Source: Candidatus Moranbacteria bacterium GW2011_GWC2_40_12
GTDB lineage: Bacteria; Patescibacteriota; Minisyncoccia; Moranbacterales; UBA11712
DNA length: 64,000 nt
Reading direction: 5' to 3'
NCBI GenBank assembly: GCA_000995965.1
Contig: LBYD01000002.1
Coordinates: 135,889-199,888, forward strand
Positions 10,527 to 62,877 of the stretch are shown piece by piece. The position numbers were made by a program, and so were the translations under genes. Below the pieces are notes generated by a model. The model was not told the origin of the DNA, ran no database searches, and saw only the letters and a program-made list of their open reading frames with translations. Every line of letters begins with the position of its first letter. The stretch's first letter is position 1.

Positions 10527-12074
10527 TTACGCTTTCCTTAAAATTTTAACGATCCCCCTATTGGCATCAACCTCGACTAGATCGCCGTCTTTCAAAATTT
10601 TCGTGGCAATTTTTGTTCCGACGATGCAGGGTTTCTTGAGTTCCCGAGAAACAATCGCCGCGTGCGAGATAATTCCTCCTGTGTCCGTCACGATCGCTGC
10701 CGCTCTTTTGAGACCCATAATCAAATCCGGATTAGTTGCCGAGGAAACCAATATATCCCCGTCTTTTACTTTGGCTGCATCTTTAGCGACAAGAACTATT
10801 TTCACCATTCCTTTAGCTTTTCCTTTATACGCCATCATCCCTTTGAGTTCACCAGTTTTCTCCTGGTCGAACTCTTTGTCGCTTTCTATTTTCAGTTTAG
10901 TAATAATTTCTTTTGCCTCCTTGCCTTCAAAAACTTTTATTCCCCCATTTATTGCGATATAACAACAGCGCCTTGTCCTTTCTTTCGCAATCTTTCGGTA
11001 TTTTTTTGCTTTCCTGTTATTAATCGCATCCTTGATATCTTCGAGCACTAAATATTTAATCTCCTTGGATGTCATCACTAATCTTCTCGCGATCTCATTA
11101 ATTATTTTATCCATGGCGACATATGATTTCTGATAAATTCCTTTTCGGAAATCCTTGATGAACATCATTTCCGCTGAAACTTGAAACGCATACTTCAAAT
11201 TTTCTGGCAGTTTTATTTTTTTTTGAATCCTCTGTTTCTCTTTCCTAATATTTTCATAATGATTCAGTATTATATTTTTCTGCTTCTTGGCGTCCCCTGT
11301 TTTCAGATTTTCGGCAAGCGCCCCAAGAAGATATTCCGCAGTCATGGCCGGTCCGGCATAGGCATATGTCAGCCAACCAAAATCTTTGAGATGTTTTTGA
11401 AATAGCTTATCAACCGACGGATACTTTTCGCTAAAATTTTTGTAATTGTTCTTTTCAATGTCCTGAATGACATTTTTTGATTTTTTGTCGGCCATTATTT
11501 TCAGGAGTAAATCCAACCTGGCAATTTCTTCTTCCTGAACTTCACTTTTCTTTTCGCTGGAGCTAAGAACCGTATAGTAATCACTAAACTTTTTCTCCTG
11601 CCCAAGTTTTTCAAGATACTTTCTAAACTCTGCTATGAGATAATCGCTCAAATAGGCTTTCTCCATCCCATCCATTGACGAAGGGATCCAACCCCAAACT
11701 CTCAAGGTCCGCAGTTTCCCCATATAATCAAGATACAATTGTAATAATTGCTTATCGCTTAATTTTTTTACGTTGGCTATTCTGTCAATGCGTTTGCAGA
11801 ATTTCATCAGTTCATCGCTATACTGATAAATGTTCTTGATAGATTTTCGGAAGAATGCTTTATCATCGATTAACTTTTTCAAAAAACCTTCTCCGACAGC
11901 ATTTGCCGATTCGCGATCATAATACATATGAATTCGGTCCTTTTCAAAATAGACGACAGCTTTTTTCACCACTGCCCTGGAAATTTTTCCTATATCTTTG
12001 GTAATCGTGAGGTCAGAAATATACCATGGGTAGATATACATATTGTCCCGCTCAAAAAGAAGTTTGAGAGCCAT
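10527..12074 (-). CDS. PEP-utilizing mobile domain protein, paralog 6
   Basis: 515 aa with C-terminus GGIISHAAIVSRELKKPCIVGTKIATKILKDGDLVEVDANRGIVKILRKA. Confidence 0.75.
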   Translation of the reverse strand: MALKLLFERDNMYIYPWYISDLTITKDIGKISRAVVKKAVVYFEKDRIHMYYDRESANAVGEGFLKKLIDDKAFFRKSIKNIYQYSDELMKFCKRIDRIANVKKLSDKQLLQLYLDYMGKLRTLRVWGWIPSSMDGMEKAYLSDYLIAEFRKYLEKLGQEKKFSDYYTVLSSSEKKSEVQEEEIARLDLLLKIMADKKSKNVIQDIEKNNYKNFSEKYPSVDKLFQKHLKDFGWLTYAYAGPAMTAEYLLGALAENLKTGDAKKQKNIILNHYENIRKEKQRIQKKIKLPENLKYAFQVSAEMMFIKDFRKGIYQKSYVAMDKIINEIARRLVMTSKEIKYLVLEDIKDAINNRKAKKYRKIAKERTRRCCYIAINGGIKVFEGKEAKEIITKLKIESDKEFDQEKTGELKGMMAYKGKAKGMVKIVLVAKDAAKVKDGDILVSSATNPDLIMGLKRAAAIVTDTGGIISHAAIVSRELKKPCIVGTKIATKILKDGDLVEVDANRGIVKILRKA

Positions 12075-13522: not shown

Positions 13523-13594
13523 TTTTGTTGACAAAACCGCCCAAAAGCGGTATTTTTTAATCAGTATTTTACCTAAATTTAAGCCAAAAACCAT

Positions 13595-14248
13595 ATGGAC
13601 AACGTAAATCCGTTCGTCACCTTGGCGGCCACTAGCGGAGTGCCCCTTGACACCCTGGTTCTAGTGTTGATTCTTCCCATCATCGTCACAATGATCGCTT
13701 TCTTCCGCCAAGTGATCGGGATCAAAGCTTTCGGCATCTATACGCCGGCTATCATCACTTTTGCCTTGCTTGCCACCAGCCAGCTGAAATACGGAATCAC
13801 GATTTTCGCTACTGTCATTGTCGTTGGAACAATCACTCGTTATCTTCTCAAAAAGGCGAGGCTCCTTTATCTTCCTCGCGTAGCCATCATGATCACCGTG
13901 GTCGGATTTTCAATCCTGCTTCTTCTTTTTGTGGGAGGAGCCTGGAACCGGACCGGGCTTGCGGGCGTGTCCATCTTCCCGATTCTCATTATGATAACAC
14001 TGGTTGAAAAGTTCATCGCCGTTCAAATCGAAAAGGGAAACCGGGCCGCTGTCATCCTCTCGCTCGAGACGCTTTTCATTTCGGTTATCGGCTACTATAT
14101 CGCGAGCTGGCCGCAACTAATCAGAATGATTTTGCACTATCCGTGGATCAGCCTGCTTACCATTCCGATAAACATTTTTTTAGGAAAGTGGACCGGCCTT
14201 CGCCTATCAGAATATTTTCGTTTTAGGCAGATTATCAAACCTAAATGA
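13595..14248 (+). CDS. 7-transmembrane membrane protein (7TM partner of RimK-like ATP-grasp systems)
   Basis: 217 aa with seven hydrophobic segments; sits immediately upstream of, and translationally coupled to (ATGA overlap), the alpha-L-glutamate-ligase-like gene. Confidence 0.5.
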   Translation: MDNVNPFVTLAATSGVPLDTLVLVLILPIIVTMIAFFRQVIGIKAFGIYTPAIITFALLATSQLKYGITIFATVIVVGTITRYLLKKARLLYLPRVAIMITVVGFSILLLLFVGGAWNRTGLAGVSIFPILIMITLVEKFIAVQIEKGNRAAVILSLETLFISVIGYYIASWPQLIRMILHYPWISLLTIPINIFLGKWTGLRLSEYFRFRQIIKPK

Positions 14249-15651
14249 TTTCATATTTCAAGGCTCGACGAAATATATTGGGAATGAACGCCCGCAATCT
14301 TCGGTTTATCCGCCCGAACAATCTTCGGCGAGCCAAAAAAATCGCCGACGACAAGCTTTTGAGCAAAAAAATTCTTGAGAAGGCCGACCTTCCCGTTCCG
14401 AAACTAATCGCGAAAATAGGAAACTTCGAAGAACTTGAAAATTTCGAATGGGGAATTCTTCCGGAAAGCTTTGTCCTGAAGCCCAACCGCGGATTCGGCG
14501 GAGAAGGAATTTTGGTCGTTTACGGAAAGAAGAAACATCTCGAAAATACCTGGATCAAGGCCGACGGTTCAATCGTGACGGCGAATGACATAAAGACGCA
14601 CGTGAGAAATATCTTAGACGGGAGTTTTTCCCTGGCCGGCGTTCCCGACGTTGCTTTTTTTGAGGAAAGACTCAAACTTCTCAAGCTTTTCAAAACTTAT
14701 GCCTACAAAGGAATTCCGGATATCCGAATAATCGTATACAATAAGGTGCCCGTGATGGCGATGCTGCGCCTTCCGACGCGCGAATCAGACGGAAAAGCCA
14801 ATCTCCAGCAGGGAGCGATCGGCGTGGGAATTGATATGGCCACAGGCGTGACTACCACGTCTGTCCTCGGAAAAGGAAAAATGATTGACTATATACCGGG
14901 AACGCGTCTTCTTCTTTCCGGAATCAAAATTCCCTACTGGAAAGATATGCTCCGAATGGCTGTCCGGGCGCAGGAAATTTCCGGCCTGGGGTTTTTGGGC
15001 GCCGACGTTGCCATTGACCGGGACCGGGGACCGGTCTTTTTGGAGCTCAATGCCCGACCGGGGCTTTCCATCCAAATTGCGAACACCGACGGATTGCTGG
15101 GGCGCTTGCGCCGGGTCGAAGATCTCAAGATAAAAACTGTCGAAAAAGGCGTGGCAGTTGGGATGAATCTTTTCGGCGGTGAAATCGAAGATGAGATTGA
15201 AGGAATTTCAGGAAAGAAAATAATTGGAATAATCGAGAAAGTAAGGCTGATCGGAAAAAAGGAAAAAGAAGTCGAAGTCGAGGCGAAAATCGACACAGGC
15301 GCGCAATCATCATCACTGGATATCGACATTGCAACTCAACTGGGTTTTGGAGAAATCGCTGATAAATTTTCAAGCATTGATCTTTCCTCTTATGAAATAG
15401 CCCCTGAAAATGAGAGCCGCATCAAGAAAGATATCCTGGAAAAATACAAGGATTTTGTCCCGGGGCTTGAAGATGTCGCTGTTATTTTTTCCGCCAGCGG
15501 AAATTCGATCCGCCCGGTAGTAAAAATAGAATTTGAGATGGACAAAGAAAGAATTATCTCAAAGATGAATTTGGTGGATCGGAAAAATCTCAAATATCCG
15601 ATGATTATCGGAAAACGCGACCTGAAAAAATTTTTAATCGAAGTGAAATAA
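14245..15651 (+). CDS. alpha-L-glutamate ligase-like (RimK-related) ATP-grasp fused to DUF785 retropepsin-like aspartic protease
   Basis: N-terminus MNARNLRFIRPNN..ADDKLLSKKILEKADLPVP...FVLKPNRGFGGEGILVV...FLELNARPG is RimK-related. C-terminal EVEAKIDTGAQSSSLDIDIA carries the D-T-G-A aspartyl protease motif of the RimB/DUF785 family. Confidence 0.65.
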   Translation: MISYFKARRNILGMNARNLRFIRPNNLRRAKKIADDKLLSKKILEKADLPVPKLIAKIGNFEELENFEWGILPESFVLKPNRGFGGEGILVVYGKKKHLENTWIKADGSIVTANDIKTHVRNILDGSFSLAGVPDVAFFEERLKLLKLFKTYAYKGIPDIRIIVYNKVPVMAMLRLPTRESDGKANLQQGAIGVGIDMATGVTTTSVLGKGKMIDYIPGTRLLLSGIKIPYWKDMLRMAVRAQEISGLGFLGADVAIDRDRGPVFLELNARPGLSIQIANTDGLLGRLRRVEDLKIKTVEKGVAVGMNLFGGEIEDEIEGISGKKIIGIIEKVRLIGKKEKEVEVEAKIDTGAQSSSLDIDIATQLGFGEIADKFSSIDLSSYEIAPENESRIKKDILEKYKDFVPGLEDVAVIFSASGNSIRPVVKIEFEMDKERIISKMNLVDRKNLKYPMIIGKRDLKKFLIEVK

Positions 15652-16625
15652 TGAAAAAAGTTTTGATATTATTCAGCAAAAGCGATTGGAAGACCAGTAC
15701 TCCCCCCAAAGATAAAGCTTACCGTTATTCGTATGAATATTTTTACACGCTTTGCAGAAAAAACAACATTCAAGTGTACCGAGCTTCTTATGAATGGTAT
15801 GACTTCAAGAAAAAGATTTTCAAATATGCTTGGATTTTTGAAAGTGCCGGAAACAATTGGCAAAGAGTCCGGAACATCAAGCCGGACTTTATTTATGACA
15901 AGACAAAGGCACGTCCCGAAATATTTTATAAAAAGGATTTGATAGGTCTAGATTATCCTTTCATAAATCATCTTGAATTCACAAAGATTGTTGACAACAA
16001 GTATACCAACAGCCTTATGTTTTTTAGGTGGAGCAAAAAAGCTTGGCTGGCCCATAATCAAAAGGAGATGAAAAAAATTATTAGGAGCATAAAGACCAGC
16101 AAAATTGTGCTAAAGCCATTGCGCCAGAGCGGGGGTGAAGGTGTTCAAATATTAAATAAGGCGGATGCGTCGAAGTGCCCTAATTTCAATCAGACGCACC
16201 TGTTGCAGGAATTTATCGATTCCTCAGAAGGAGTTCCGGGAGTGGTAAAAGGCATTCATGATCTGAGGCTTATTATGGTTAACAATGAGCTCATATATTC
16301 GTTAATCCGGCAACCTGCCAAAGGCAGTTATCTCGCTAATCTGGCTCAAGGAGGAACAGTGACGTTCATACCATTAAATAAGGTTCCCAGATCTGTCTTT
16401 CCTATTATTAACCAAGCAAAAAAACTTTTTGAATCATTCCGACCTCGAATTTTTTCCATTGATGTTATGTTCGATAAGAAAAAAAAGCCTTGGGTCGTGG
16501 AATTAAATTCAATGCCAGGGCTATATTTTTCTCCAAAAGGAAACCGCTACATGGAAAAGATGTATGCAGCGTTATTAAAAGTTTTTCAGGCTCGCTTAAA
16601 AGATTTATCTGGGAAAAAAATATGA
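15651..16625 (+). CDS. ATP-grasp ligase, YheC/YheD-like (tandem copy A)
   Basis: KIVLKPLRQSGGEGV.., GIHDLRLIMVN.., RQPAKGSYLANLAQGGTV and ELNSMPGL. Confidence 0.6.
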   Translation: MKKVLILFSKSDWKTSTPPKDKAYRYSYEYFYTLCRKNNIQVYRASYEWYDFKKKIFKYAWIFESAGNNWQRVRNIKPDFIYDKTKARPEIFYKKDLIGLDYPFINHLEFTKIVDNKYTNSLMFFRWSKKAWLAHNQKEMKKIIRSIKTSKIVLKPLRQSGGEGVQILNKADASKCPNFNQTHLLQEFIDSSEGVPGVVKGIHDLRLIMVNNELIYSLIRQPAKGSYLANLAQGGTVTFIPLNKVPRSVFPIINQAKKLFESFRPRIFSIDVMFDKKKKPWVVELNSMPGLYFSPKGNRYMEKMYAALLKVFQARLKDLSGKKI

Positions 16626-17581
16626 AAAAAGTTCTCATTCTATATGGGAAAAAAGGCGTAAAGCGACCTCCCTTTGAAAATGATTCCTACCGGATTTCTT
16701 ATGAAATCCTTTACGCCCTTTGTGAGAAAAGAGGAATAAAAATGTTCCGTGCTCCTTATCAAGAATATGACCACAAAAAAAAATATTTCAAGCGGGCTTG
16801 GTTTTTTGACGCGAAACATAAACGCTGGAGCATAACAAAAAATGTCATACCCCATCTTATTTTCGACAAAACTGCGGCAAACTCTCAAGCCGACTGCGAA
16901 AAAGAATCGATCGGGAAAGATTATTTATTTTTCAATGCGCTTGAATTTTCCCAGCTGGTAAGAAATAAACTCGCGATTAGCCTGTTATTTAGCAAATGGA
17001 GCAAAAAAAGCTGGCTCATCGAAAACAAACGCGACTTAAAAAAAATATTACTCAAAATTACCACCGGTAAACTGGTCATCAAGCCGCTAAGGGGCGGCGG
17101 GGGCAAAAATGTCCAGGTACTCGAAAAAAAGGACGCCCTCAAAAACGCTCGCCTAAAAGGTACCTATTTGATTCAGGATTATATTGACTCTTCAGCCGGC
17201 ATTTCCGGCATTAGCAAATCCATGCACGATTTACGGTTAGTTATGATTAACGATAAGATTATCTATTCTTTCGTCCGAGAGCCAAAAGCAGGATGTTTTC
17301 TCGCAAATTGTTCGCAAGGAGGAACTTTGAAAATTGTCCCTTTGAAAGATATTCCGAGGTCTGTTTACCCGATCATTAGCCATGCAACAAAAATGTTCAA
17401 TACTTTTTCTCCCCGATTTTATTCAATTGATCTAATGTTTGACAAAACAAAAAGGCCATGGGTAGTCGAGCTCAATGCCATGCCCGGGCTTAACATATGC
17501 GCTAAGGAAGAGAAGCCATATATTTTACGGTTGTATAAGGAACTAGCCAAGGTTTTTAAGGCTAAAGCAGAATTATGCTAA
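16622..17581 (+). CDS. ATP-grasp ligase, YheC/YheD-like (tandem copy B)
   Basis: Paralog of the preceding gene (KLVIKPLRGGGGKNV, HDLRLVMIN, REPKAGCFLANCSQGGT, ELNAMPGL). Start set at ATG 16622 (MKKVLILYGKKG), which is coupled to the upstream stop; the track ORF begins further upstream at 16490. Confidence 0.6.
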   Translation: MKKVLILYGKKGVKRPPFENDSYRISYEILYALCEKRGIKMFRAPYQEYDHKKKYFKRAWFFDAKHKRWSITKNVIPHLIFDKTAANSQADCEKESIGKDYLFFNALEFSQLVRNKLAISLLFSKWSKKSWLIENKRDLKKILLKITTGKLVIKPLRGGGGKNVQVLEKKDALKNARLKGTYLIQDYIDSSAGISGISKSMHDLRLVMINDKIIYSFVREPKAGCFLANCSQGGTLKIVPLKDIPRSVYPIISHATKMFNTFSPRFYSIDLMFDKTKRPWVVELNAMPGLNICAKEEKPYILRLYKELAKVFKAKAELC

Positions 17582-20136
17582 AAAAAAGACCAAAAATTAT
17601 CAAACGCTGGTTCCTTGAAGGACCAAATAGATACGGAGACCATCCCTCCTTCAGAATCGAGGTACCGGCGCGAAAGGTATCACGGAACTTTGTTCTGATG
17701 AAATCAAAAAAATTGTCGCTCGACGCGAAAGATATGGTTTTCTCAACGAAATCCGATATTTCTTCCTGGATGTTTTCAGTAAAAACTCTCACGCGTCTCG
17801 CGGGCATTGCACTCGAATATCATGAACACTCCGCCATTCAAACAGGAAATGTTTTTGTGGTTTTTAGGGCAGATTCGGCGGAAATAGGAAACACAATCGC
17901 TTGCGAAGCCGCAGCATGGATCAATTCCGGTTTCCAAAAAAACGTTTCTCCATTCGTGACAAGATTGAAAATTGCCGCAAAAAAATATAGCACGGGACCA
18001 ATCACAGGAAGATACCTGCTCCAAGCGAAAAGAAGAGGCATCCCCTCTATCATACTTGCCAAAGAACCAAATTTACTTCAATTTGGATATGGAAGGCGGC
18101 TCAAGAAAGCATTGTCAGCTTCCACCAGCAACACCTCGAGAATCGGATCAAAAATCACCTCGAATAAAAACACGCTCAATGTTTTGCTAAATAAAATTGA
18201 TATTCCGGTTTCATTATCTGAGAAAATTTCCAATCTTTCCGAATTATATTCACTACTCAAAAAATTTAATCTTCCAGTTGTAATAAAACCGGCTGACTCT
18301 ACCGAAGGAAAAGGTGTTTCACTGAACATCCGGGATATTGGAGCTGCAAAAAAAGCATACCGCCGCGCAAGAAAGTTCAGCCGAAATGTCATAATGGAAA
18401 ATCAAATCGAAGGCCGATATTACAGGATAACGTTTGTCGGCGGCAAGATGATAGCATGTGCTAAGGCTAGTCCAGCCTGCGTGATCGGCAATGGAAGAAA
18501 AAAGCTTTCTCATTTAATCAGGGAAGAAAACGCAAAGCCATATCGCCAAACAAACAACAAAGACGCCGCTTTTTACAAAATTGAACTGACGCATAAACTT
18601 AAAACCATTCTTTCTTTCCAGGGAGTTGACTTGAATTCAATTATCCCGAAAATGCGAAAGATATTTCTTTCCTACTCGGGCGTTGACGGCGGAGAATGGA
18701 TAGAAGACAACGCTTCAGTTCATCCTGAAAATATTGATCTGATCAAACGCGCGCTGTTATTTGCCGAACTAGACATTGCCGGAGTGGATATTATCTCGCC
18801 GGATATTTCCAAGCCGCTGGCGTCCAACGGAGGAAAAATAATTGAGATCAATGCTGGCCCCGACACAAACATCCACGCCAACGTTAACCGCGGCAAAAAA
18901 ATATTCGTTGAAAAAGCAATCTTAGATTACCTGTATCCTTATCCCGAAAAAGGACGTATTCCTATTGTGAGCGTCACCGGAACAAACGGAAAAACGACCA
19001 CTTCTAAGCTCATTGCCCATCTCATTAATAATCCCTCCCGGTGGACTGTGGGCCTTGCCACTTCGGATAACAAATATATTAACGGCGAGCTTGTGGCGAA
19101 AGGTGACAAATCAGGCTTTCTCAGCGCCCGCTCACTTCTTATTAATCCTGAAATTGACGCGGCTGTCCTTGAAACTTGCCATATCTTGGGCATAGACATG
19201 CGGGGTTTGGGATATGACTGGAGTGATGCAAGTGTTATAACAAATGTAACTGACGACCATATTGGAACTTTCTGCACTCGAACTGCCGGAGATTTGTTTA
19301 GGATAAAGTCGGTCGTGGCAAAACGAACAAAAAAGAAAGGGTATCTTATTCTTAACGCCGACGACAAAAATGCGCCTCGAATGGCAAGACACACAAAAGC
19401 TACGATCGCTTATTTTAGCTTGGATTCCCATAATCATCAAATAAAATCACATTCCGCCAAGGGGCTACCCGTCTATTACCTGCGGAATGAAAAACTTTGG
19501 GAAGAGCGCGAGGGAAAGAAGACCTTATTGGCTGAGGTAAGTTGTATTCCTATTGCTTTTTCTGGAAAAGCCGAGTTTAATATCCAAAATTGTCTTGGAG
19601 CTCTAGCGGCCGTCAGATTGGTTTTTGGATCTCGTTTTCCTATCGAGAAAATTCGAAACAAATTATATTCTTTTGGCCGACATCCTCAATCCAATCCGGG
19701 ACGCTTCAATCTAATAAGAAAAAAAAATTATCACGTAGTTGTTGACTATGCTCATAATCCCGACGGTTATAAAAAGACCATAGAACTGGCAAGCAAAATC
19801 CCCCATAAAAGATTTGTCGGAATAATTAAGTCGGCCGGCGACCGTCCCGAAGGTTTTATTCACGAACTGGGAAAAATTTCCGGAAACAGCTTCGACTATA
19901 TTTTCATTAAAGAACCATCACCTGAAAAAATTAGGAACAGAGAAAAAGGGGTAGTCTCAAATCTTTTGCAAAAAGGCGTTCTTTCTACCGGATTTCCAAA
20001 AAAATTGACACGGATTATCCATGACGAAAAAACCGCTGTCAACAAAGCTCTGCAGCAATCCCGAGGCGGCGATCTTTTGGTTGTATTTGCACATGATATT
20101 GATAATGTAATTGAACAAATAAACAAATATCCCTAG
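17575..20136 (+). CDS. cphA: cyanophycin synthetase-like (ATP-grasp + Mur-ligase domains)
   Basis: 853 aa. N-terminus ..LEGPNRYGDHPSFRIEV. ATP-grasp: LPVVIKPADSTEGKGVSLN...RITFVGGKMIACAKASPACVIGNGRKKLSHLI. Mur-ligase: YPYPEKGRIPIVSVTGTNGKTTT...DYAHNP. Confidence 0.65.
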   Translation: MLKKRPKIIKRWFLEGPNRYGDHPSFRIEVPARKVSRNFVLMKSKKLSLDAKDMVFSTKSDISSWMFSVKTLTRLAGIALEYHEHSAIQTGNVFVVFRADSAEIGNTIACEAAAWINSGFQKNVSPFVTRLKIAAKKYSTGPITGRYLLQAKRRGIPSIILAKEPNLLQFGYGRRLKKALSASTSNTSRIGSKITSNKNTLNVLLNKIDIPVSLSEKISNLSELYSLLKKFNLPVVIKPADSTEGKGVSLNIRDIGAAKKAYRRARKFSRNVIMENQIEGRYYRITFVGGKMIACAKASPACVIGNGRKKLSHLIREENAKPYRQTNNKDAAFYKIELTHKLKTILSFQGVDLNSIIPKMRKIFLSYSGVDGGEWIEDNASVHPENIDLIKRALLFAELDIAGVDIISPDISKPLASNGGKIIEINAGPDTNIHANVNRGKKIFVEKAILDYLYPYPEKGRIPIVSVTGTNGKTTTSKLIAHLINNPSRWTVGLATSDNKYINGELVAKGDKSGFLSARSLLINPEIDAAVLETCHILGIDMRGLGYDWSDASVITNVTDDHIGTFCTRTAGDLFRIKSVVAKRTKKKGYLILNADDKNAPRMARHTKATIAYFSLDSHNHQIKSHSAKGLPVYYLRNEKLWEEREGKKTLLAEVSCIPIAFSGKAEFNIQNCLGALAAVRLVFGSRFPIEKIRNKLYSFGRHPQSNPGRFNLIRKKNYHVVVDYAHNPDGYKKTIELASKIPHKRFVGIIKSAGDRPEGFIHELGKISGNSFDYIFIKEPSPEKIRNREKGVVSNLLQKGVLSTGFPKKLTRIIHDEKTAVNKALQQSRGGDLLVVFAHDIDNVIEQINKYP

Positions 20137-20140
20137 TGTT

Positions 20141-21634
20141 ATGGAAAAAAAGGCAAAGCCGAGTGGTACTTTCATTCGCGATATTGAAAACCTCAAAACG
20201 CTATTTTCGAGAAACAAAATAAAGATTTTTGGAATCGGGGCTTACCCTTCAACGCGAAGCGAGATCCGCCCCTTGATAGATGATTCCGAAATCATCTGCG
20301 CGAATCAGACCGGCGAATTCGCTTCGGTAAGCCAAAAAATAAAAGTGTCCTGCTTTCGGATAAAAAACAGGCTATCCAGTCTATATCCCGTGCAAAATCC
20401 AGAAGAAATCCTTTCAAAAAAAAGCGTAATCGCCCATATCAGGAAAAATTCAGCGGGCAAAAGAATCGGGATATACATATACAAACCGTCTTTAAAAATA
20501 GAAAAGATTTGTCGGGCAAATGGCTGGATTTTGATCGCAAACCGAATTTCCGTTTTTGACAAACTGGCTGGTAAAGACGAGGCTTGCCGCATTTTCCAAA
20601 AAATAGGAAAAAATCGAGATTTTCAAACAGTACCCCTAAACAGTCTTGAGAAAAAATTACCCGGTTTATTTTCAAGATTTGGAGACAAGATTGTTTTGCA
20701 ATTCCCGCGAGAGGGCGGAGGACGAGGCACTTTCTTTTTCCGCCGCGAAGATTCGAAAAATATAAGTTCGGAAATAGCAAAAAAAAGGAAAGGTTCGGAG
20801 ATAAAAAATTTTTCAAATAGAGTTTTGGTCAACGCTTATATTAAGGGGCCTTCTTTGAGCATCAGCGGCTGCATAACAAAAAGCAACGGCATTCTTTGCG
20901 ACAGCCTTCGCTATCAGCTGATCGACATCGCCGAGGCGAAAAAGATCAACTCCGCCGGAGTATTTTGCGGAAACGACTGGACGCTTGCGAAAAATATTCC
21001 CGCTTTCCTCGACAAACAAGCAAAAAAAATCGCCGTCCTAGTCGGCAATGTCCTAAAATCTGAAGGAGCACTCGGCATGTTTGGAATAGATTTTATCCGA
21101 TGCCGAGAAAGCGATACTCTGGTTCCTATTGAAATAAATCCTCGCCTGCTCGGCACGACCCCTGTTTCAGTTTATGTCCATTTACAAAAAGAACAAATCC
21201 CTCTTGAGGCTTTCCATCTGCTGGAATTCTTGAACATACCCTACAGAAAATTAAAAACTTTACCCAAGGAAAGTTTTTTATCGGCTCATGGGTGCCATTT
21301 GATACTATATAATCAGACTAGCGGCCGCGTTCGCGTCGGCAACGAGTTAAAGGGCGGCGTCTACGCGTTAACGAGGGCTTCGCGGCCCGCGCTCAAATAT
21401 TTGCGCCCTGGTTTTGAGCTTAGCGATATCAAGAATATGAATGAGTTTATTCTTACGGATGGAATGCCTCTTAAGAAGCTGGTCTACCAAAAAAATAAAA
21501 AACTTTTGAGGATTATTTCCAAAAAATCTCTAGTTAAAAAAAGCGCCGCCGAATTAAACTCCTGGGGGAAAAAAGTAGTCAGCCAAGTGCGGAGCAACCT
21601 TAAGATTCATCCGCTAAAAAAAATCAATAGGTAA
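20141..21634 (+). CDS. ATP-grasp domain protein (fifth ATP-grasp of the cluster)
   Basis: 497 aa with GMFGIDFI...PIEINPRLLGTTP, a typical ATP-grasp C-terminal Mg/ATP region. Confidence 0.5.
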   Translation: MEKKAKPSGTFIRDIENLKTLFSRNKIKIFGIGAYPSTRSEIRPLIDDSEIICANQTGEFASVSQKIKVSCFRIKNRLSSLYPVQNPEEILSKKSVIAHIRKNSAGKRIGIYIYKPSLKIEKICRANGWILIANRISVFDKLAGKDEACRIFQKIGKNRDFQTVPLNSLEKKLPGLFSRFGDKIVLQFPREGGGRGTFFFRREDSKNISSEIAKKRKGSEIKNFSNRVLVNAYIKGPSLSISGCITKSNGILCDSLRYQLIDIAEAKKINSAGVFCGNDWTLAKNIPAFLDKQAKKIAVLVGNVLKSEGALGMFGIDFIRCRESDTLVPIEINPRLLGTTPVSVYVHLQKEQIPLEAFHLLEFLNIPYRKLKTLPKESFLSAHGCHLILYNQTSGRVRVGNELKGGVYALTRASRPALKYLRPGFELSDIKNMNEFILTDGMPLKKLVYQKNKKLLRIISKKSLVKKSAAELNSWGKKVVSQVRSNLKIHPLKKINR

Positions 21635-21647
21635 CTCTATTTTTCTT

Positions 21648-23036
21648 ATGGAAAAGCCAAGTATTTTCAGTCAATCATATCTGGAGAGACGTGATCCGAA
21701 AGCTTACGATAAACAATGGCGCCATTTAATTAACCTTTGTCGTTCCTATAACGATCCTTTTACTTATTTAGGGGGCGAAGAAAAATACCGCAAACAGCAG
21801 AAAGATGATTTTTTATCTGGTAAAATTGAAAATCCGGTTCTTGATTATCCGGATATCAATATCGAAGATATAGACAGACGAGAAAAAAAGCTCCTTGAAA
21901 TAAAAGAATACATACTGAAAAAGGAGAAGAGGGAATTCGTTCGCCAGGCATATAAATGGAGAATAAATGAATTAGTGGCCGGCTTTAGAATGCTAAAGGC
22001 CACCGCCTCGGGAAACATGAAAAGATTCCAGCGCTATACCGAATATATCTACGGCAATCCTTCCCGAGATATTTTTTCCTATTCGGTAGAAAAGATTAGA
22101 GCCAACCTGGAAAATTATCTTGACTCGGATAATCTGGACCTGCAGAGCGCTGCCCAAAATCTTTTTGACGCGCTTCCGAAAGATCTTCCCGAGGCTAAAG
22201 TGATTCATTTGCCTGGCCAAGACGTGATTTCTAACGCGAAAAAAATTATCGATGAAGAATTCAGCAATCTATTCGAAATGCCTTCGGAAAAAAAAGAGCT
22301 CGACGCTGAAGATATTTGTCTCATCGCTTCTCAAATTATTAAAGATAAAAAGGCTTTCGACTGGAAAGCGATACTAATCGACGGAGGCAGCGGAAGCAGT
22401 CTGTCAGTGGATCAAGAAAGAAAACAATTTAAAATTCCAAAAGCAAAGACTGTTTCGCCTTCCGAATTTACAGGCACCGCTCGTCATGAAGCGGGCCGTC
22501 ATTTTTTCAGAAGAATTGAGGGTGATCGGAGCCGCTTGCGGCTGTTGGGAATAGGTCTCGACAGATATGACCGAGGGGAAGAAGGAGTCGCCACTGCCAC
22601 AGAACAAGCGGCAGAAGAACGAATGGATGATTTTGCTGGTCTCGCGAGCCATCTCGCGATCAGTTTGGCCATCGGACTTGACGGCAAACCACGAAACTTT
22701 AGGGATACTTATGAATGGATGAAAAAATACTTTACATTTCTCAAAGTTAAAAACGGAAAGAGTTTTTCCTCCGCTGAAACCGAAGCGCGATCGAATGCCT
22801 GGGCAATTTGCATTCGAACCTTTCGCGGAACAAATTGTTCCACTCCCGGCGTTTGTTTCACGAAGGATATCGTGTACAGAGAAGGCAACATAGAAACATG
22901 GGGAATCCTTGAAGAAAATCCTGAAGAAGCTCATCGTTTTAGTGTGGGGAAATACGACCCAGCCAATATGCGGCATCTCTGGATTCTTGATCAAATGGCT
23001 ATAGAAGATCAGGATTTAGAATATTTAGAGAAATAG
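21648..23036 (+). CDS. DUF1704 / QEGLA-family (MATCAP-like) putative metallo-carboxypeptidase
   Basis: 462 aa with an HEAGRH (H-E-x3-H) motif and a GEEGVATATEQ segment resembling the EEGLA signature. Confidence 0.5.
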   Translation: MEKPSIFSQSYLERRDPKAYDKQWRHLINLCRSYNDPFTYLGGEEKYRKQQKDDFLSGKIENPVLDYPDINIEDIDRREKKLLEIKEYILKKEKREFVRQAYKWRINELVAGFRMLKATASGNMKRFQRYTEYIYGNPSRDIFSYSVEKIRANLENYLDSDNLDLQSAAQNLFDALPKDLPEAKVIHLPGQDVISNAKKIIDEEFSNLFEMPSEKKELDAEDICLIASQIIKDKKAFDWKAILIDGGSGSSLSVDQERKQFKIPKAKTVSPSEFTGTARHEAGRHFFRRIEGDRSRLRLLGIGLDRYDRGEEGVATATEQAAEERMDDFAGLASHLAISLAIGLDGKPRNFRDTYEWMKKYFTFLKVKNGKSFSSAETEARSNAWAICIRTFRGTNCSTPGVCFTKDIVYREGNIETWGILEENPEEAHRFSVGKYDPANMRHLWILDQMAIEDQDLEYLEK

Positions 23037-23150: not shown

Positions 23151-25385
23151 ATGAAAAACGAACTCGTGGATAACACGAAAAATGCTTTGAAAAAGCCAAA
23201 AAAGAAGCGGAAATGGCTTCGGCGGATTTTCAAAATTTTTGTTTGGTGCTTTGTCGCCGGGCTGCTTTTAGCTATAGGCGTTTTTGCCTATTATGCCAAA
23301 GATTTGCCTAGTCCCGGAAAACTCAACAAGAGGCAAGTCGTCGAATCTACCAAGATATACGACCGCACGGGAGAGCACCTTCTCTATGAAATCCACGGCG
23401 AGGAAAAACGCACCACTATCCCCCTAAAAGACATGGGCGAAGTCATCAAGGCCGCCACTCTTTCTGCCGAAGACCAGAGCTTTTATCAGCATCACGGAAT
23501 TTATTTCAAATCTATCGCGCGGGCCGCGATTTATGATCTTATCGGCCGCCAAGTCAGCCAGGGAGGATCGACCATCAGTCAGCAGCTAATCAAAAACACG
23601 GTACTTACAAACGAAAAAACTTTCACCCGCAAAGTAAAAGAAGTGATTCTTTCGGTCGAGCTCGAGCAAAGATTTTCCAAAGACGAAATTCTCGAGATGT
23701 ATCTCAACGAGATTCCTTATGGCTCCAATGCCTATGGGGTTCAGGCGGCTGCTCAGACTTTTTTCGGAAAAGACGCTAAGAGCCTTACTCTGGCTGAAGC
23801 AGCCCTTCTTGCTTCCCTTCCGAAAGCTCCAACCTATTACTCCCCTTATGGCTCAAACACAGATGACTTGAGAGGCCGGCAGGAGTACGTCTTGGACCAG
23901 ATGGCAAAACTTGGCTACATCACCAGAGAAGAGGCAGAAGGCGCCAAAGAAATTGATATAATTTCCGAAGTCAGACCCTTTCAGGAAAGCATCCAAGCGC
24001 CCCACTTTGTGATGTATGTGAAAGATCTTTTAGTGAACAAGTACGGCGAACAGCAAGTTGAAGAGGGCGGAATGAAAGTATTTACCACTCTTGATTGGGA
24101 CAAGCAGCAAATTGCAGACGAGGCGGTAAAAAAGGGAGTCGCGAATAACTCCAAGTATAAAGCCTCAAACGCGGCTCTCGTCGCTATTGATCCAAAGACG
24201 GGACAAATCCTGGCCATGGTCGGTTCCCGCGATTATTTTGACAAAACCATTGACGGAAACGTGAATGTTGCTATCCGCGACCGTCAACCTGGATCAAGTT
24301 TCAAGCCCTATGTTTACGCAACCGCTTTCAAAAAAGGCTACACCCCGAATACCATGCTTTTTGATGTTGAAACAAATTTTGGGACGAAGGAGAAGCCTTA
24401 TGCTCCTCAAAATTATTCGAATAATTTCAGCGGTCCGGTGAAAATGAAAGAGGCGCTTGCGAGATCCTTGAATATCCCGGCTGTGAAAACCCTTTACCTG
24501 GCCGGCGTGCAAAATTCGGTCAATACGGCCCAATCAATGGGAATCACTACTCTCAAGAACCCAAGCCGCTACGGTCTGGCTTTGGTTCTCGGCGGCGGGG
24601 AAGTCAAGCTCGTTGACCACGTGAACGCGTTCGGGACATTCGCGACAGGAGGAGTCAGACATGACAAGACAGCCATTCTCAAAATCACCTACTCTCAGGG
24701 AAACCTTCTGGACGAATATAAAAATTCAGCCGGGGAAAAAGTGCTGGATCAGGATATTTGCGCCAAAATTGATTCTATTCTTTCCGATAACAGCCTGCGC
24801 TCATCTGTTTTCGGCTCGAACAGCCCTCTCCGATTCGACAGCCGCCCAGTAGCCGTGAAAACCGGGACTACCAATGAATGGCGGGATGCCTGGACAGTTG
24901 GATATGCGCCAAATCTCGTAGCCGGCGTTTGGGCGGGAAACAACAACAACGCACCGATGGCACAAGGGTCCGATGGAGTGTATGTCGCCGCGCCAATTTG
25001 GCGGGAATTTATGGATAGGGCGTTTTCCAATATGGCCATTGAAAAATTTCCTGAAGTGAAAGACGAAAAAACCGGAAAAGCTATTCTCGACGGGACGGTG
25101 CAGGGAGAGGAGAAAGAGGTAACTGTTTGCAAAATCAGTGACGGAAAATATTGCCTTGCCAACGATAATTGTCCAGACAACGAAAAGAGGCGACACAAAA
25201 AATTCTTTTCGGCCCATTCCATCTTATATTGGATTGACAAAGACAACCCCCGCGGAGATGCCCCTAAACAGCCTCAAAAGGATCCTCAGTTTTCCGCTTG
25301 GGAAAAGGGAGTTCAGAAGTGGGCAGAGAAAAAAGAACTTGATGTTCAAGAAAATGTTGAGGAATGCAAGTCCAGTGATTTTTAA
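23151..25385 (+). CDS. class A penicillin-binding protein (PBP1A; transglycosylase + transpeptidase)
   Basis: EDQSFYQHHGI...GGSTISQQLIKN is a GT51 transglycosylase; SGSSFKPYVY is the transpeptidase SxxK motif; an N-terminal TM anchor is present. Confidence 0.9.
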   Translation: MKNELVDNTKNALKKPKKKRKWLRRIFKIFVWCFVAGLLLAIGVFAYYAKDLPSPGKLNKRQVVESTKIYDRTGEHLLYEIHGEEKRTTIPLKDMGEVIKAATLSAEDQSFYQHHGIYFKSIARAAIYDLIGRQVSQGGSTISQQLIKNTVLTNEKTFTRKVKEVILSVELEQRFSKDEILEMYLNEIPYGSNAYGVQAAAQTFFGKDAKSLTLAEAALLASLPKAPTYYSPYGSNTDDLRGRQEYVLDQMAKLGYITREEAEGAKEIDIISEVRPFQESIQAPHFVMYVKDLLVNKYGEQQVEEGGMKVFTTLDWDKQQIADEAVKKGVANNSKYKASNAALVAIDPKTGQILAMVGSRDYFDKTIDGNVNVAIRDRQPGSSFKPYVYATAFKKGYTPNTMLFDVETNFGTKEKPYAPQNYSNNFSGPVKMKEALARSLNIPAVKTLYLAGVQNSVNTAQSMGITTLKNPSRYGLALVLGGGEVKLVDHVNAFGTFATGGVRHDKTAILKITYSQGNLLDEYKNSAGEKVLDQDICAKIDSILSDNSLRSSVFGSNSPLRFDSRPVAVKTGTTNEWRDAWTVGYAPNLVAGVWAGNNNNAPMAQGSDGVYVAAPIWREFMDRAFSNMAIEKFPEVKDEKTGKAILDGTVQGEEKEVTVCKISDGKYCLANDNCPDNEKRRHKKFFSAHSILYWIDKDNPRGDAPKQPQKDPQFSAWEKGVQKWAEKKELDVQENVEECKSSDF

Positions 25386-62297: not shown

Positions 62298-62555
62298 ATG
62301 AAAATCACCAAAATCGCTTTTTGGATTTCTTGGGGAATCCTGCTTGTGGGGGTGATTTCAACTCTTGGAGCTTGGATTTATGCAACATTACTGGCAACCG
62401 CGGGAAATACGAACCAATATCTTTTTTGGAAGAACATCAGTGACAAATCTTTGGCATCATTGCCTCTGGGAAGTATACTGCTACTGATTTTTTCTGCAGT
62501 CCATGTTGTGAAGCTAAATGAAATTAACAGGAGAGGGAAAAATGAAAAAGAGTAA
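62298..62555 (+). CDS. small membrane protein, hypothetical
   Basis: 85 aa with two TM segments. Confidence 0.35.
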   Translation: MKITKIAFWISWGILLVGVISTLGAWIYATLLATAGNTNQYLFWKNISDKSLASLPLGSILLLIFSAVHVVKLNEINRRGKNEKE

Positions 62556-62877
62556 AAATAACACCTTCGACTTTAGTTTTGCGTACTGGATTACTATTTT
62601 TATTATAATCCAGCTGTCATTTAACTTTTTCACCACTTTAGTTTTCTCTTTAGCTCTGGCAAATCTCCACCACAACACCATAGCCAATTTCCAAATTGGA
62701 TGGTGGCAAATAGCTGGCATTGCAACCTCATTAATTTCATTCATATACGCTATTGCTGCCTTAGTCTTGATGTTTATTCCCTTGGTACACTTTTCAGTTG
62801 GTCGGCAGCAACAAAAAGAAAGGATGGAAAGGGAGGGGGCAGGAGCTGGAGTAACTGAAGAAAAAGATGAAGGCTAA
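62518..62877 (+). CDS. small membrane protein, hypothetical
   Basis: 119 aa with three TM segments and a charged C-terminus. Confidence 0.35.
   Translation: MKLTGEGKMKKSKNNTFDFSFAYWITIFIIIQLSFNFFTTLVFSLALANLHHNTIANFQIGWWQIAGIATSLISFIYAIAALVLMFIPLVHFSVGRQQQKERMEREGAGAGVTEEKDEG

What the first reader, a model, noticed from the sequence alone, without database searches (positions are those of the whole stretch)
14245..15651. RimK-like ligase and RimB/DUF785-like aspartic protease fused in one polypeptide
The ligase and its associated retropepsin-like protease are usually separate genes (for example in the Pseudomonas rimABK operon). Here they form a single 468-aa protein, with the D-T-G-A active site at residues ~350, directly coupled to the 7TM gene. 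The fusion implies obligatory coupling of ligation with proteolysis.
Basis: partly seen in the sequence, partly recalled or inferred. Interest (0 to 1): 0.55.

Follow-up and report, generated by a model that had tools for sequence, protein, structure and literature searches.

The report
Ligase fused to its trimming protease
This is a real, widely conserved gene of tiny uncultured (Patescibacteria) bacteria in which an enzyme that builds peptide chains is joined to a retrovirus-type protease that probably cuts them, a fused variant of the recently described but mechanistically unsolved Pseudomonas rloABC system.

Summary
Observation confirmed. ORF 14245-15651 (+) encodes 468 aa. Residues 8-295 are an RloC-type ATP-grasp ligase (PF14397 at 3.5e-70; TIGR02291 at 299 bits). 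Residues ~324-468 are a retropepsin domain (PF05618 above its cutoff; best PDB fold matches 2PMA, RloA and RloA2). K348-I-D350-T-G-A is present. The start overlaps the stop of a 7TM gene (ATGA).

It is not a frameshift artefact. More than 120 homologues of ~468 aa (66-91% identity) and 21 genome loci keep the fusion and the order yebC-ruvC-7TM-fusion. The apparently separate protease genes lie in frameshift-riddled assemblies.

The closest known system is Pseudomonas rloABC, not RimK/RimB proper. It differs in four ways:
- The protease is fused to the ligase, has no signal peptide and no cysteines, so it is cytoplasmic.
- The 7TM partner lacks the transglutaminase domain.
- The operon adds four more amide ligases.
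- The operon ends with a MATCAP-like metallopeptidase.

The poly-Glu-contacting residues of RloA (K46, R114, R137) are invariant here. I infer a membrane-associated writer-plus-eraser enzyme for acidic peptide chains.

One caveat: many distant fused relatives have lost DTGA, so ligation is not always coupled to retropepsin proteolysis.

Verdict: new variant of a known kind, moderate interest.

The parts
13528..13556 (+). Promoter-like site (TTGACA-17-TATTTT) in the ruvC-7TM intergenic gap; candidate operon promoter
   Evidence: Consensus scan, 10 of 12 matches; sequence read. A consensus match only, not shown to function.
13595..14248 (+). 7TM membrane protein (217 aa), RloB-like but without the N-terminal inactive transglutaminase domain
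   Evidence: PF14402 7TM_transglut 4.1e-29. It matches only positions 309-507 of the 508-position RloB model NF052267. Hydropathy gives 5 strong plus 2 weaker TM segments and a basic C-terminal tail. It lies immediately upstream of the fusion in all 21 loci; the 20 Moranbacteria-type loci are 60-95% identical and Dojkabacteria L020 is 36%.
14245..15651 (+). Fusion gene: RloC-type ATP-grasp ligase joined to an RloA/RimB-type retropepsin (468 aa)
   Evidence: No TM segment (maximum KD19 1.17) and no cysteine.
14266..15129 (+). ATP-grasp ligase domain (residues 8-295)
   Evidence: TIGR02291 298.8 bits and PF14397 236.8 bits. Best PDB fold matches are ArgX/LysX, RimK, Ddl and CphA1. K79, D254, E267, N269 and R271 are invariant in 47 sequences.
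15130..15213 (+). Conserved acidic linker IKTVEKGVAVGMNLFGGEIEDEIEGISG (residues 296-323)
   Evidence: Translation. G311, G312, E313, E319, S322 and G323 are invariant. The motif persists in distant fused relatives and is absent from unfused RloC-like proteins. pLDDT is below 50 at residues 314-318. Function unknown.
15214..15648 (+). Retropepsin (clan AA, PF05618/DUF785) domain (residues 324-468)
   Evidence: PF05618 41.6 bits; RloA3/RloA/RloA2 models at 4e-11 to 8e-8. phmmer hits to 9G58, 2PMA and 9G59. AF2 domain model has pLDDT 86.3 and pTM 0.80. Top Foldseek PDB hits are 2PMA, 9G58 and 9G59, then HIV-1 protease and Ddi1.
15286..15303 (+). Active-site motif K348-I-D350-T-G-A353
   Evidence: Translation. 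K348, D350, T351, G352 and A353 are invariant in 47 sequences. The motif aligns with the AKLDTGA motif of RloA in 9G58.
15322..15447 (+). Two-helix insert (residues ~360-401) at the position of the retropepsin flap
   Evidence: AF2 secondary structure H360-376 and H387-401. The insert is absent from the 119-aa stand-alone PF05618 proteins P0308-P0311. RloA has a long disordered flap at this position (PMC12239564).
15651..16625 (+). RimK/GshB-like ATP-grasp ligase (324 aa), same operon
   Evidence: PF08443 1.5e-14; homologues lie downstream of the fusion in many loci.
16622..17581 (+). Second RimK/GshB-like ATP-grasp ligase (319 aa), a paralogue of the previous gene
   Evidence: PF08443 8.4e-14.
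17575..20136 (+). Cyanophycin-synthetase-like protein (853 aa; ATP-grasp plus Mur-ligase domains)
   Evidence: TIGR02068 688.5 bits, below the equivalog cutoff of 850; Mur_ligase_M and Mur_ligase_C.
20141..21634 (+). Further ATP-grasp protein (497 aa)
   Evidence: PF02655 1.3e-9; PRK06524 1.2e-21, far below its cutoff.
21648..23036 (+). MATCAP/DUF1704-like metallopeptidase (462 aa), last gene of the operon
   Evidence: PF08014 6.7e-19, 68.5 bits against a cutoff of 27. HEAGRH motif at residues 280-285. Fused to the ligase::retropepsin protein in other CPR lineages.

Best explanation
The gene encodes a genuine bifunctional cytoplasmic enzyme of a Moranbacteria-type (Patescibacteria/CPR) bacterium. 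It is the fused counterpart of RloC (ATP-grasp amide ligase) and RloA (retropepsin) of the rloABC system, translationally coupled to an RloB-like 7TM protein that lacks the transglutaminase domain.

Proposed mechanism:
- At the cytoplasmic face of the 7TM partner, the ATP-grasp domain uses ATP to add alpha-linked acidic residues (most likely Glu) to a peptide or protein acceptor.
- Two fusion chains pair their C-terminal domains into a retropepsin dimer with a D350/D350' dyad.
- That dimer cuts the acidic chains, setting chain length, recycling the acceptor, or generating new primer ends.
- The other four ligases and the MATCAP-like carboxypeptidase of the operon elaborate and trim the same product.

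Shown here: domain identities, intact catalytic and substrate-contact residues, fusion conservation, operon structure, and absence of export signals.

Inferred: the Glu/acidic substrate, dimerisation, the role of the 7TM protein, and the biological purpose.
For: Domains and folds are supported.

Catalytic competence: the ATP-grasp residues K79, D254, E267-x-N269 and R271 and the protease residues K348, D350-T-G-A, R423 and R446 are invariant in 47 sequences at 66-91% identity.

Substrate contacts: K348, R423 and R446 align with RloA(Pa) K46, R114 and R137, with the same 23-residue R-R spacing. These residues contact poly-Glu, and R114A and R137A abolish function (PMC12239564). RimB and RloA cleave runs of at least 8 Glu. 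RimK plus RimB together set tail length, and RimB raises RimK ATPase and poly-Glu synthesis (PMC7343187; PMC11957791).

Fusion conservation: more than 120 homologues of the same length. 21 genome loci have 7TM-fusion adjacency followed by further ATP-grasp genes.

Independent 'Rosetta-stone' fusions in relatives: 7TM::ligase, ligase::retropepsin::MATCAP, and ligase::retropepsin::second ATP-grasp.

Localisation and operon: no TM helix, signal peptide or Cys. Stop/start overlaps are ATGA and TAATG.
Against: - No biochemical data exist for any RloC-type ligase, so its substrate is unknown even in Pseudomonas (PMC12239564).
- Pfam names the ligase family 'sugar-transfer associated', so a non-peptide acceptor is possible.
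- In Pseudomonas RloA is secreted and RloC is cytoplasmic, so the two need not act in one compartment.
- 71 of 101 extended cluster representatives lack an intact DTGA, so the domain can persist without catalysis.
- TIGR02291 scores just below its curated cutoff (298.8 against 314.2).
- Retropepsin dimerisation and the inter-domain geometry were not modelled (full-length pTM 0.62).
Confidence: 0.6

Rival explanations
1. The retropepsin domain acts mainly as a structural or regulatory module, for dimerisation, allosteric activation of the ligase, or binding of the acidic chain. Proteolysis is minor or absent, and real trimming is done by the MATCAP-like peptidase of the operon.
For: Among the 150 best 50%-identity cluster representatives, 23 of 46 proteins of 400-560 aa and 48 of 55 proteins longer than 560 aa keep the domain but have a degenerate DTGA, while the C-terminal 'IIGRRDL' strand stays conserved. 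RimB stimulates RimK ATPase (PMC7343187). The window operon has its own MATCAP-like gene with an HExxxH motif.
Against: In the window's clade K348, D350, T351, G352, A353, R423 and R446 are all invariant across 47 sequences down to 66% identity, and also in the 26-sequence domain alignment down to 37% identity. That is the signature of selection on catalysis. Loss of DTGA goes mainly with the long MATCAP-type fusions, which the window protein is not.
Confidence: 0.2
2. The protein is a polyprotein. The retropepsin cuts itself free at the conserved acidic linker, as retroviral proteases do, so that the mature ligase and protease act as separate proteins as in Rim/Rlo.
For: A strongly conserved acidic, low-confidence linker (LFGGEIEDEIEGISG) lies directly N-terminal to the protease domain. 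It is absent from unfused RloC-like proteins. Retropepsins classically autoprocess (established knowledge).
Against: RloA needs at least 8 consecutive Glu and is blocked by interruptions (PMC12239564); the linker has alternating E and I/D residues only. The linker is equally conserved in relatives with a dead DTGA. It is not tested here.
Confidence: 0.1
3. It is the RimK-RimB ribosomal protein S6 (RpsF) polyglutamylation system in fused form.
For: The PF08443 RimK domain is hit above its cutoff. The protease is cytoplasmic and lacks cysteines like RimB (PMC12239564). RimK is among the best fold matches.
Against: The RimK family model TIGR00768 gives 43.2 bits against a cutoff of 143.4, and the S6-ligase equivalog NF007764 is not hit by this protein. 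TIGR02291 (RloC-type) scores 298.8 bits. The gene is translationally coupled to an RloB-type 7TM gene in all 21 loci. No rpsF or acidic-tailed ribosomal protein was found in the window.
Confidence: 0.07
4. Two adjacent genes were merged by a sequencing or assembly error.
For: None found. A few ~160-aa 'stand-alone' close relatives exist.
Against: The same 454-489-aa single frame (one cluster of 514 aa) occurs in more than 120 independent clusters from NCBI, JGI, ENA and Logan and in 21 genomes. The stand-alone copies sit in assemblies where every neighbouring gene is also fragmented (L022, L023). The linker itself is conserved.
Confidence: 0.01

Closest known systems
rloABC operon of Pseudomonas aeruginosa / P. 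fluorescens (RloA retropepsin, RloB inactive-transglutaminase 7TM protein, RloC ATP-grasp; PMC12239564)
   Same: The same three protein families occur in one operon: TIGR02291/PF14397 ligase, PF05618 retropepsin with DTGA, and the PF14402 7TM module. The RloA poly-Glu contact residues K46, R114 and R137 and the catalytic Asp are conserved. The top fold matches are the RloA and RloA2 crystal structures and 2PMA.
   Different: - The protease is fused to the C-terminus of the ligase.
- It has no signal peptide and no disulfide cysteines, so it is cytoplasmic rather than secreted.
- The flap is replaced by a two-helix insert.
- The 7TM protein lacks the transglutaminase domain.
- The operon adds two RimK-like ligases, a CphA-like ligase, another ATP-grasp protein and a MATCAP-like peptidase.
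- The host is Patescibacteria rather than Gammaproteobacteria.
RimK-RimB (rimABK) of Pseudomonas fluorescens (PMC7343187, PMC11957791)
   Same: A cytoplasmic ATP-grasp Glu ligase works with a cytoplasmic, cysteine-free, dimeric DTG retropepsin that cleaves poly-Glu. The ligase and protease interact, and together they set chain length.
   Different: The Rim proteins are separate polypeptides with no membrane partner, and their target is RpsF. The window's ligase domain fails the RimK family model (43 bits against a cutoff of 143) and belongs to the RloC/ATPgrasp_ST branch. There is no RimA.
Cyanophycin synthetase CphA1 with its cryptic hydrolytic site (PMC9262961, title and abstract seen)
   Same: It is a poly-amino-acid polymerase that carries its own chain-cleaving activity in the same polypeptide, which creates primers for polymerisation. 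A CphA-like gene is in the same operon.
   Different: The cleaving domain is of a different kind and the polymer is different (beta-Asp-Arg). The analogy is mechanistic only and was not tested here.
Eukaryotic tubulin tail code: TTL/TTLL ATP-grasp ligases with MATCAP carboxypeptidase
   Same: ATP-grasp 'writers' are paired with a MATCAP-family (PF08014) 'eraser'. In CPR relatives the two lie in one polypeptide (P0131, 800 aa), and in the window they lie in one operon. The HExxxH motif is present; that this motif is typical of MATCAP is from my own knowledge.
   Different: The ligase family is different (RloC-type, not TTL). No tubulin-like target is known, and a retropepsin and a 7TM partner are added.

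Membership tests
Pfam PF05618 (DUF785 / Zn_protease / 'RimB-like' retropepsin domain) | Score above the Pfam gathering threshold | tested here: met
   41.6 bits against a cutoff of 27, E 1.4e-10. The HMM stretch covers only residues 411-467, but the RloA models and PDB alignments cover 324-465.
Retropepsin-like aspartic peptidases (clan AA) | D-T/S-G-A catalytic motif in the conserved position | tested here: met
   D350-T-G-A aligns with the DTGA of 9G58 and 2PMA and is invariant in 47 and in 26 sequences.
Retropepsin-like aspartic peptidases (clan AA) | Retropepsin half-barrel fold | tested here: met
   AF2 domain model with pLDDT 86.3. Foldseek PDB hits: 2PMA 4.3e-6, RloA 5.2e-6, RloA2 5.5e-6, then HIV-1 protease (TM normalised to target ~0.7) and Ddi1.
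Retropepsin-like aspartic peptidases (clan AA) | Homodimer bringing two catalytic Asp together | not testable with these tools
   Only single-chain prediction is available. It needs a multimer model or SEC-MALS.
RloA (NCBIfam NF052262-4; secreted retropepsin of the rlo operon) | Score above the curated cutoff of an RloA model | tested here: not met
   RloA3 42.8 against 210, RloA 38.5 against 280, RloA2 31.9 against 250. It is a homologue, not an equivalog.
RloA (NCBIfam NF052262-4; secreted retropepsin of the rlo operon) | N-terminal signal peptide and conserved disulfide pair (periplasmic location; PMC12239564) | tested here: not met
   The domain is C-terminal to a cytoplasmic ATP-grasp. 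There is no hydrophobic segment (maximum KD19 1.17) and no Cys in the whole protein.
RloA (NCBIfam NF052262-4; secreted retropepsin of the rlo operon) | Basic poly-Glu-binding residues K46, R114, R137 | tested here: met
   K348, R423 and R446 align with them and are invariant. Binding itself is not tested.
RloC / TIGR02291 alpha-L-glutamate ligase-like protein | Score above the curated cutoff | tested here: not met
   298.8 bits against 314.2, just below. It is by far the best-scoring ligase family, and the match covers positions 9-294 of 317 in the model.
Pfam PF14397 ATPgrasp_ST | Score above the gathering threshold over the full domain | tested here: met
   236.8 bits against 31.4, covering profile positions 2-277 of 278.
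ATP-grasp superfamily (active enzyme) | Conserved ATP/Mg2+ residues (Lys, Asp, E-x-N, Arg) | tested here: met
   K79, D254, E267, N269 and R271 are invariant. The fold matches ArgX/LysX, RimK, Ddl and CphA1. Activity is not tested.
RimK (TIGR00768 / NF007764 S6-Glu ligase) | Score above the curated cutoff | tested here: not met
   TIGR00768 gives 43.2 bits against 143.4; NF007764 is not hit by this protein.
RloB (NF052267; inactive transglutaminase fused to 7TM) - the neighbouring gene | N-terminal inactive transglutaminase domain plus C-terminal 7TM module | tested here: not met
   Only the 7TM half is present: a 217-aa protein matching model positions 309-507 of 508, at 79.9 bits against a cutoff of 900. 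PF14402 is met at 102 bits against 25.
rlo-type operon | Ligase, retropepsin and 7TM module encoded together | tested here: met
   ATGA overlap in the window. The 7TM-fusion adjacency holds in 21 of 21 loci.

The most novel reading that the evidence does not exclude
The operon is a prokaryotic multi-writer, two-eraser 'peptide-tail code' machine. Five amide ligases build a short, acidic and possibly branched peptide tail on a protein or envelope precursor held at a 7TM scaffold. Two dedicated erasers remove it: a retropepsin fused to the lead ligase and a MATCAP-family carboxypeptidase. On this reading the ATP-grasp/MATCAP pairing of the eukaryotic tubulin code descends from, or is paralleled by, an ancient bacterial membrane-associated system. 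The cytoplasmic fused protease would also show that the true substrate of Rlo-type proteases is the RloC product itself.
Probability: 0.15. Interest if true: 0.8.

Novelty: new variant of a known kind. Interest (0 to 1): 0.48.

Why it matters
The rloABC operon affects osmotic tolerance, biofilm formation, cell shape and antibiotic resistance in Pseudomonas. The activity of RloC, the role of RloB and the natural substrate of RloA are all unknown (PMC12239564).

The natural fusions in Patescibacteria help in three ways:
- The ligase::protease, 7TM::ligase and ligase::protease::MATCAP fusions are 'Rosetta-stone' evidence that these components act on one another's product in one membrane-associated complex.
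- They show that the protease can work on the cytoplasmic side.
- A single 52-kDa cysteine-free polypeptide with both activities is a convenient in-vitro handle for identifying the product.

The system also extends, with a different architecture, to ultra-small uncultured bacteria. It links bacterial ATP-grasp ligases to MATCAP-family peptidases.

Tried and rejected
- Frameshift or merge artefact: rejected.
- Stand-alone close relatives of the protease domain: the search with residues 311-468 returned mostly gene fragments on 1-3 kb contigs. The two on long contigs lie in assemblies with all genes broken.
- Anti-phage defence: no PADLOC hit for any of the six operon proteins tested; the MATCAP-like protein was not scanned.
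- Second retropepsin, 7TM or RloC copy in the window: none.
- Candidate acceptor with an acidic C-terminal tail or an internal D/E run of at least 6 in the window: only a small unannotated membrane ORF at 62518-62877, with no family hit; rpsF was not found.
- Acidic tail as a general feature of unfused RloC-like ligases (self-priming idea): not seen.
- Foldseek with the full-length model returned only ATP-grasp hits, so the C-terminal domain was modelled separately.
- The afdb50 fold library was unavailable.
- Iyer et al. 2009 (PMC3268129), the paper behind the Pfam families, is not held. Anything said about it rests on memory.
- Literature searches for PF05618, PF14397, PF14402, TIGR02291, and for RimK together with Patescibacteria, found no description of the fused CPR system.
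Full report
**1. Observation**

The window contains an uninterrupted ATG-started ORF at 14245-15651 (+) of 468 aa. Pfam places ATPgrasp_ST (PF14397) on residues 17-292, with E 3.5e-70 and 236.8 bits. It also gives above-threshold hits to RimK (PF08443, 33 bits against a cutoff of 21) and to Zn_protease/DUF785 (PF05618, 41.6 bits against 27).

NCBIfam gives TIGR02291 'alpha-L-glutamate ligase-like protein' on residues 8-295 at 298.8 bits. The three RloA retropepsin models match residues 322-465 with E values from 4e-11 to 8e-8.

The D-T-G-A motif is at residues 350-353, nt 15292-15303. The ATG overlaps the TGA of the upstream gene as ATGA. The stop overlaps the next ATG as TAATG.

**2. Not an artefact**

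A search of 5.8 billion protein clusters returned at least 120 clusters with 66-91% identity. All but one are 452-489 aa (one is 514 aa), and nearly all carry both PF14397 and PF05618. They come from independent NCBI, JGI, ENA and Logan assemblies and are named Moranbacteria, Parcubacteria or Patescibacteria where named at all.

A scan of GTDB species genomes found 21 loci with 51-90% identity, including a Dojkabacteria genome. In all of them one frame spans both domains.

A search with the C-terminal 158 residues found apparently stand-alone ~160-aa proteins. Most lie on 1-3 kb contigs. The two on long contigs, L022 and L023, sit in assemblies where the 7TM gene, the ligase part and the neighbouring genes are all chopped into pieces. 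Frameshift errors split this gene; none merged it.

**3. Anatomy of the protein**

*Ligase domain.* The ATP-grasp residues K79, D254, E267-x-N269 and R271 are invariant in a 47-sequence alignment. The full-length AF2 model has mean pLDDT 83.9 and pTM 0.62. It matches ArgX/LysX, RimK, Ddl and CphA1 best.

*Linker.* Residues 296-323 carry a conserved acidic motif, LFGGEIEDEIEGISG. G311, G312, E313, E319, S322 and G323 are invariant, and the model has low confidence here. The motif persists in distant fused relatives but is missing from unfused ~300-320 aa RloC-like proteins. Its role is unexplained.

*Protease domain.* Residues 324-468 align end to end with P. fluorescens RloA (9G58), P. aeruginosa RloA2 (9G59) and Legionella Lpg0085/DUF785 (2PMA). 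A separate AF2 model of the domain has pLDDT 86.3 and pTM 0.80. It retrieves these three structures first, then HIV-1 protease and Ddi1.

*Substrate-contact residues.* K348, D350, R423 and R446 align with RloA(Pa) K46, D48, R114 and R137. The R-R spacing of 23 residues is identical. The RloA study showed that these residues line the poly-Glu channel and that R114A and R137A abolish function (PMC12239564). All four are invariant here.

*Flap.* The flap position is occupied by a confidently predicted two-helix insert, residues ~360-401. It is absent from short stand-alone PF05618 proteins.

*Localisation.* The protein has no hydrophobic segment and no cysteine. The protease domain must therefore be cytoplasmic, like RimB. 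RloA, by contrast, has a signal peptide and a conserved disulfide (PMC12239564).

**4. Surroundings**

A promoter-like site at 13528-13556 precedes a tightly packed plus-strand operon:

| Coordinates | Product | Evidence |
|---|---|---|
| 13595-14248 | 7TM protein, PF14402; matches only the C-terminal 7TM half (309-507 of 508) of RloB, so no transglutaminase domain | |
| 14245-15651 | Ligase::retropepsin fusion | |
| 15651-16625 | RimK/GshB-like ATP-grasp | |
| 16622-17581 | RimK/GshB-like ATP-grasp, paralogue | |
| 17575-20136 | Cyanophycin-synthetase-like protein, 688 bits against a cutoff of 850 | |
| 20141-21634 | Further ATP-grasp protein | |
| 21648-23036 | MATCAP/DUF1704-like metallopeptidase, PF08014 at 68.5 bits, with an HEAGRH motif | |

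The cluster is flanked by yebC-ruvC upstream and a class A PBP downstream. The same flanks occur in most of the related loci.

The 7TM-fusion pair is constant across the 21 loci. The set of downstream ligases and the MATCAP gene vary.

**5. The wider family**

An exhaustive HMMER search of 1.84 billion 50%-identity cluster representatives found 2020 relatives at E ≤ 1e-3, of which 443 are at E ≤ 1e-30. The best 150 divide as follows:

| Length class | Count | Intact D[TS]GA | Degenerate |
|---|---|---|---|
| < 400 aa (unfused RloC-like proteins or fragments) | 49 | n/a | n/a |
| 400-560 aa | 46 | 23 | 23 |
| > 560 aa | 55 | 7 | 48 |

Of the eight proteins longer than 560 aa that were scanned with Pfam, three of ~790-800 aa and one of 916 aa carry an added C-terminal MATCAP domain. 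P0148 has a second ATP-grasp, P0122 a YdjC domain, P0142 only the ligase and retropepsin domains, and P0259 only a partial ligase domain. P0252 (576 aa) is a 7TM::ligase fusion.

Three contexts are informative:
- P0131 (EKD49309.1, an uncultured CPR bacterium) lies in the same yebC-ruvC position. It sits next to a 7TM protein whose N-terminus carries PKD domains instead of a transglutaminase. More ATP-grasps and another MATCAP gene follow it.
- A 7TM::ligase fusion on an archaeal-looking contig is followed by a separate Transglut_core gene.
- The module is therefore combinatorial. The pairwise fusions argue that the 7TM protein, the ligase and the peptidases form one functional unit.

**6. Mechanism**

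*Shown here:*
- An apparently active ATP-grasp ligase and an apparently active retropepsin lie in one cytoplasmic chain.
- The gene is translationally coupled to a 7TM protein.
- It is co-operonic with four more amide ligases and a second peptidase.

*From the literature:*
- RimK adds alpha-linked Glu to RpsF and makes poly-alpha-Glu.
- RimB cuts poly-Glu, interacts with RimK, raises its ATPase and poly-Glu output, and the pair sets tails of about four residues (PMC7343187; PMC11957791).
- RloA cuts runs of at least 8 Glu.
- The defects of rloA1-3 mutants are suppressed by deleting rloB or rloC. This points to a toxic RloBC-dependent product that RloA removes (PMC12239564).

*Inferred for this protein:*
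- The ligase domain extends an acidic peptide chain at the 7TM scaffold.
- A retropepsin dimer formed by two fusion chains cleaves that chain. This limits its length, recycles the acceptor, or creates new primer ends.
- Primer creation would parallel CphA1, whose cryptic hydrolytic site makes primers for polymerisation (PMC9262961, abstract seen).

I put about 0.6 on this writer-plus-eraser reading.

*Rivals:*
- A mainly structural or regulatory protease domain (about 0.2). It is supported by the frequent loss of DTGA in relatives and contradicted by strict invariance in this clade.
- Autoprocessing at the acidic linker (about 0.1).
- A fused RimK/RimB acting on S6 (about 0.07). It is contradicted by the HMM scores and by the 7TM coupling.
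- Artefact (about 0.01).

**7. Comparison with known systems and novelty**

The system works most like RimK/RimB, in that both activities are cytoplasmic. By descent it is closest to rloABC. It fails several defining features of the latter as curated:
- The RloA models are far below their cutoffs.
- There is no signal peptide and no disulfide.
- The RloB partner has no transglutaminase domain.
- TIGR02291 is just under its cutoff.

The domain-level families PF05618, PF14397 and PF14402 are all met (see the membership table).

The rlo study reports RloB as 96% proteobacterial and treats the operon as a gammaproteobacterial innovation. It does not mention the fused Patescibacteria form. Full-text searches for the family accessions, and for RimK together with CPR names, found no description of the fused system.

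The proteins are in public databases under generic names such as 'sugar-transfer associated ATP-grasp domain-containing protein' and 'alpha-L-glutamate ligase-like protein'. I therefore rate it a new variant of a known kind, not a new kind.

**8. Verdict**

The interest is moderate (0.48), for four reasons:
- The fusion is common in its lineage.
- Its chemistry is plausibly that of Rim/Rlo.
- It offers Rosetta-stone evidence and an experimentally convenient handle on the unsolved rloABC mechanism.
- It puts the Rlo-type protease in the cytoplasm and ties these ligases to MATCAP-family peptidases.

Noticed in passing
window 21648-23036 (+); L025 3474-5876: A MATCAP/DUF1704-like metallopeptidase (PF08014, HEAGRH motif) closes the operon. 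In other CPR lineages the same domain is fused to the ligase::retropepsin protein (~800 aa, e.g. EKD49309.1), and there the DTGA motif is usually degenerate. This looks like replacement of one eraser by another.
   Followed up: partly
window 15169-15213 (residues 309-323 of the fusion): A strongly conserved acidic linker, LFGGEIEDEIEGISG, lies between the two domains. It is present even in distant and catalytically dead fused relatives and absent from unfused RloC-like proteins. Its function is unknown; it could be a pseudo-substrate, a processing site or an acceptor mimic.
   Followed up: partly
window 17575-20136 (+); L019 11411-13703; L021 11412-13644: The cyanophycin-synthetase-like gene scores below the CphA equivalog cutoff (688 bits against 850). 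In relatives it is replaced by separate ATP-grasp (~318-336 aa) and Mur-ligase (~423 aa) genes.
   Followed up: no
L025 1870-3420; L024 6001-8801: The extracellular N-terminal part of the 7TM partner is interchangeable. It is absent in the window, PKD domains in L025, and a transglutaminase in Proteobacteria. In L024 the 7TM module is fused to the ligase and a separate Transglut_core gene follows, on a contig with archaeal-type genes (PTH2, TruD, intein).
   Followed up: partly
window 23151-25385 (+), 25789-26940 (-), 27214-28608 (-): The operon always sits between yebC-ruvC and a class A penicillin-binding protein. dnaN and dnaA follow on the opposite strand, so the locus is close to the likely replication origin. 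Whether the PBP adjacency is functional (the rlo mutants of Pseudomonas have cell-shape and beta-lactam phenotypes) or only syntenic is open.
   Followed up: no
L005, L007, L011, L013 (record titles); P0033: MAGs titled 'uncultured Bdellovibrionales', and a protein labelled 'Candidatus Bathyarchaeia', carry the Moranbacteria-type gene order or sequence (62-73% identity). These are probably taxonomic mislabels or mis-binned contigs.
   Followed up: no
L022 and L023 (ENA ERZ25039515, ERZ25039495): These assemblies have pervasive frameshifts. The 7TM, ligase, CphA-like and PBP genes are all broken into fragments, which creates spurious 'stand-alone' retropepsin proteins in protein databases.
   Followed up: yes
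window 62518-62877 (+): A small predicted membrane ORF (119 aa) with an acidic C-terminal tail (...GVTEEKDEG). It is the only ORF in the window with such a tail, and it has no Pfam hit. It may be spurious.
   Followed up: partly
window 10527-12074 (-); L002 1-5954; L003 1-6530: A PEP-utilising-enzyme mobile-domain protein lies upstream. In related genomes the same region holds up to four tandem paralogues of it.
   Followed up: no
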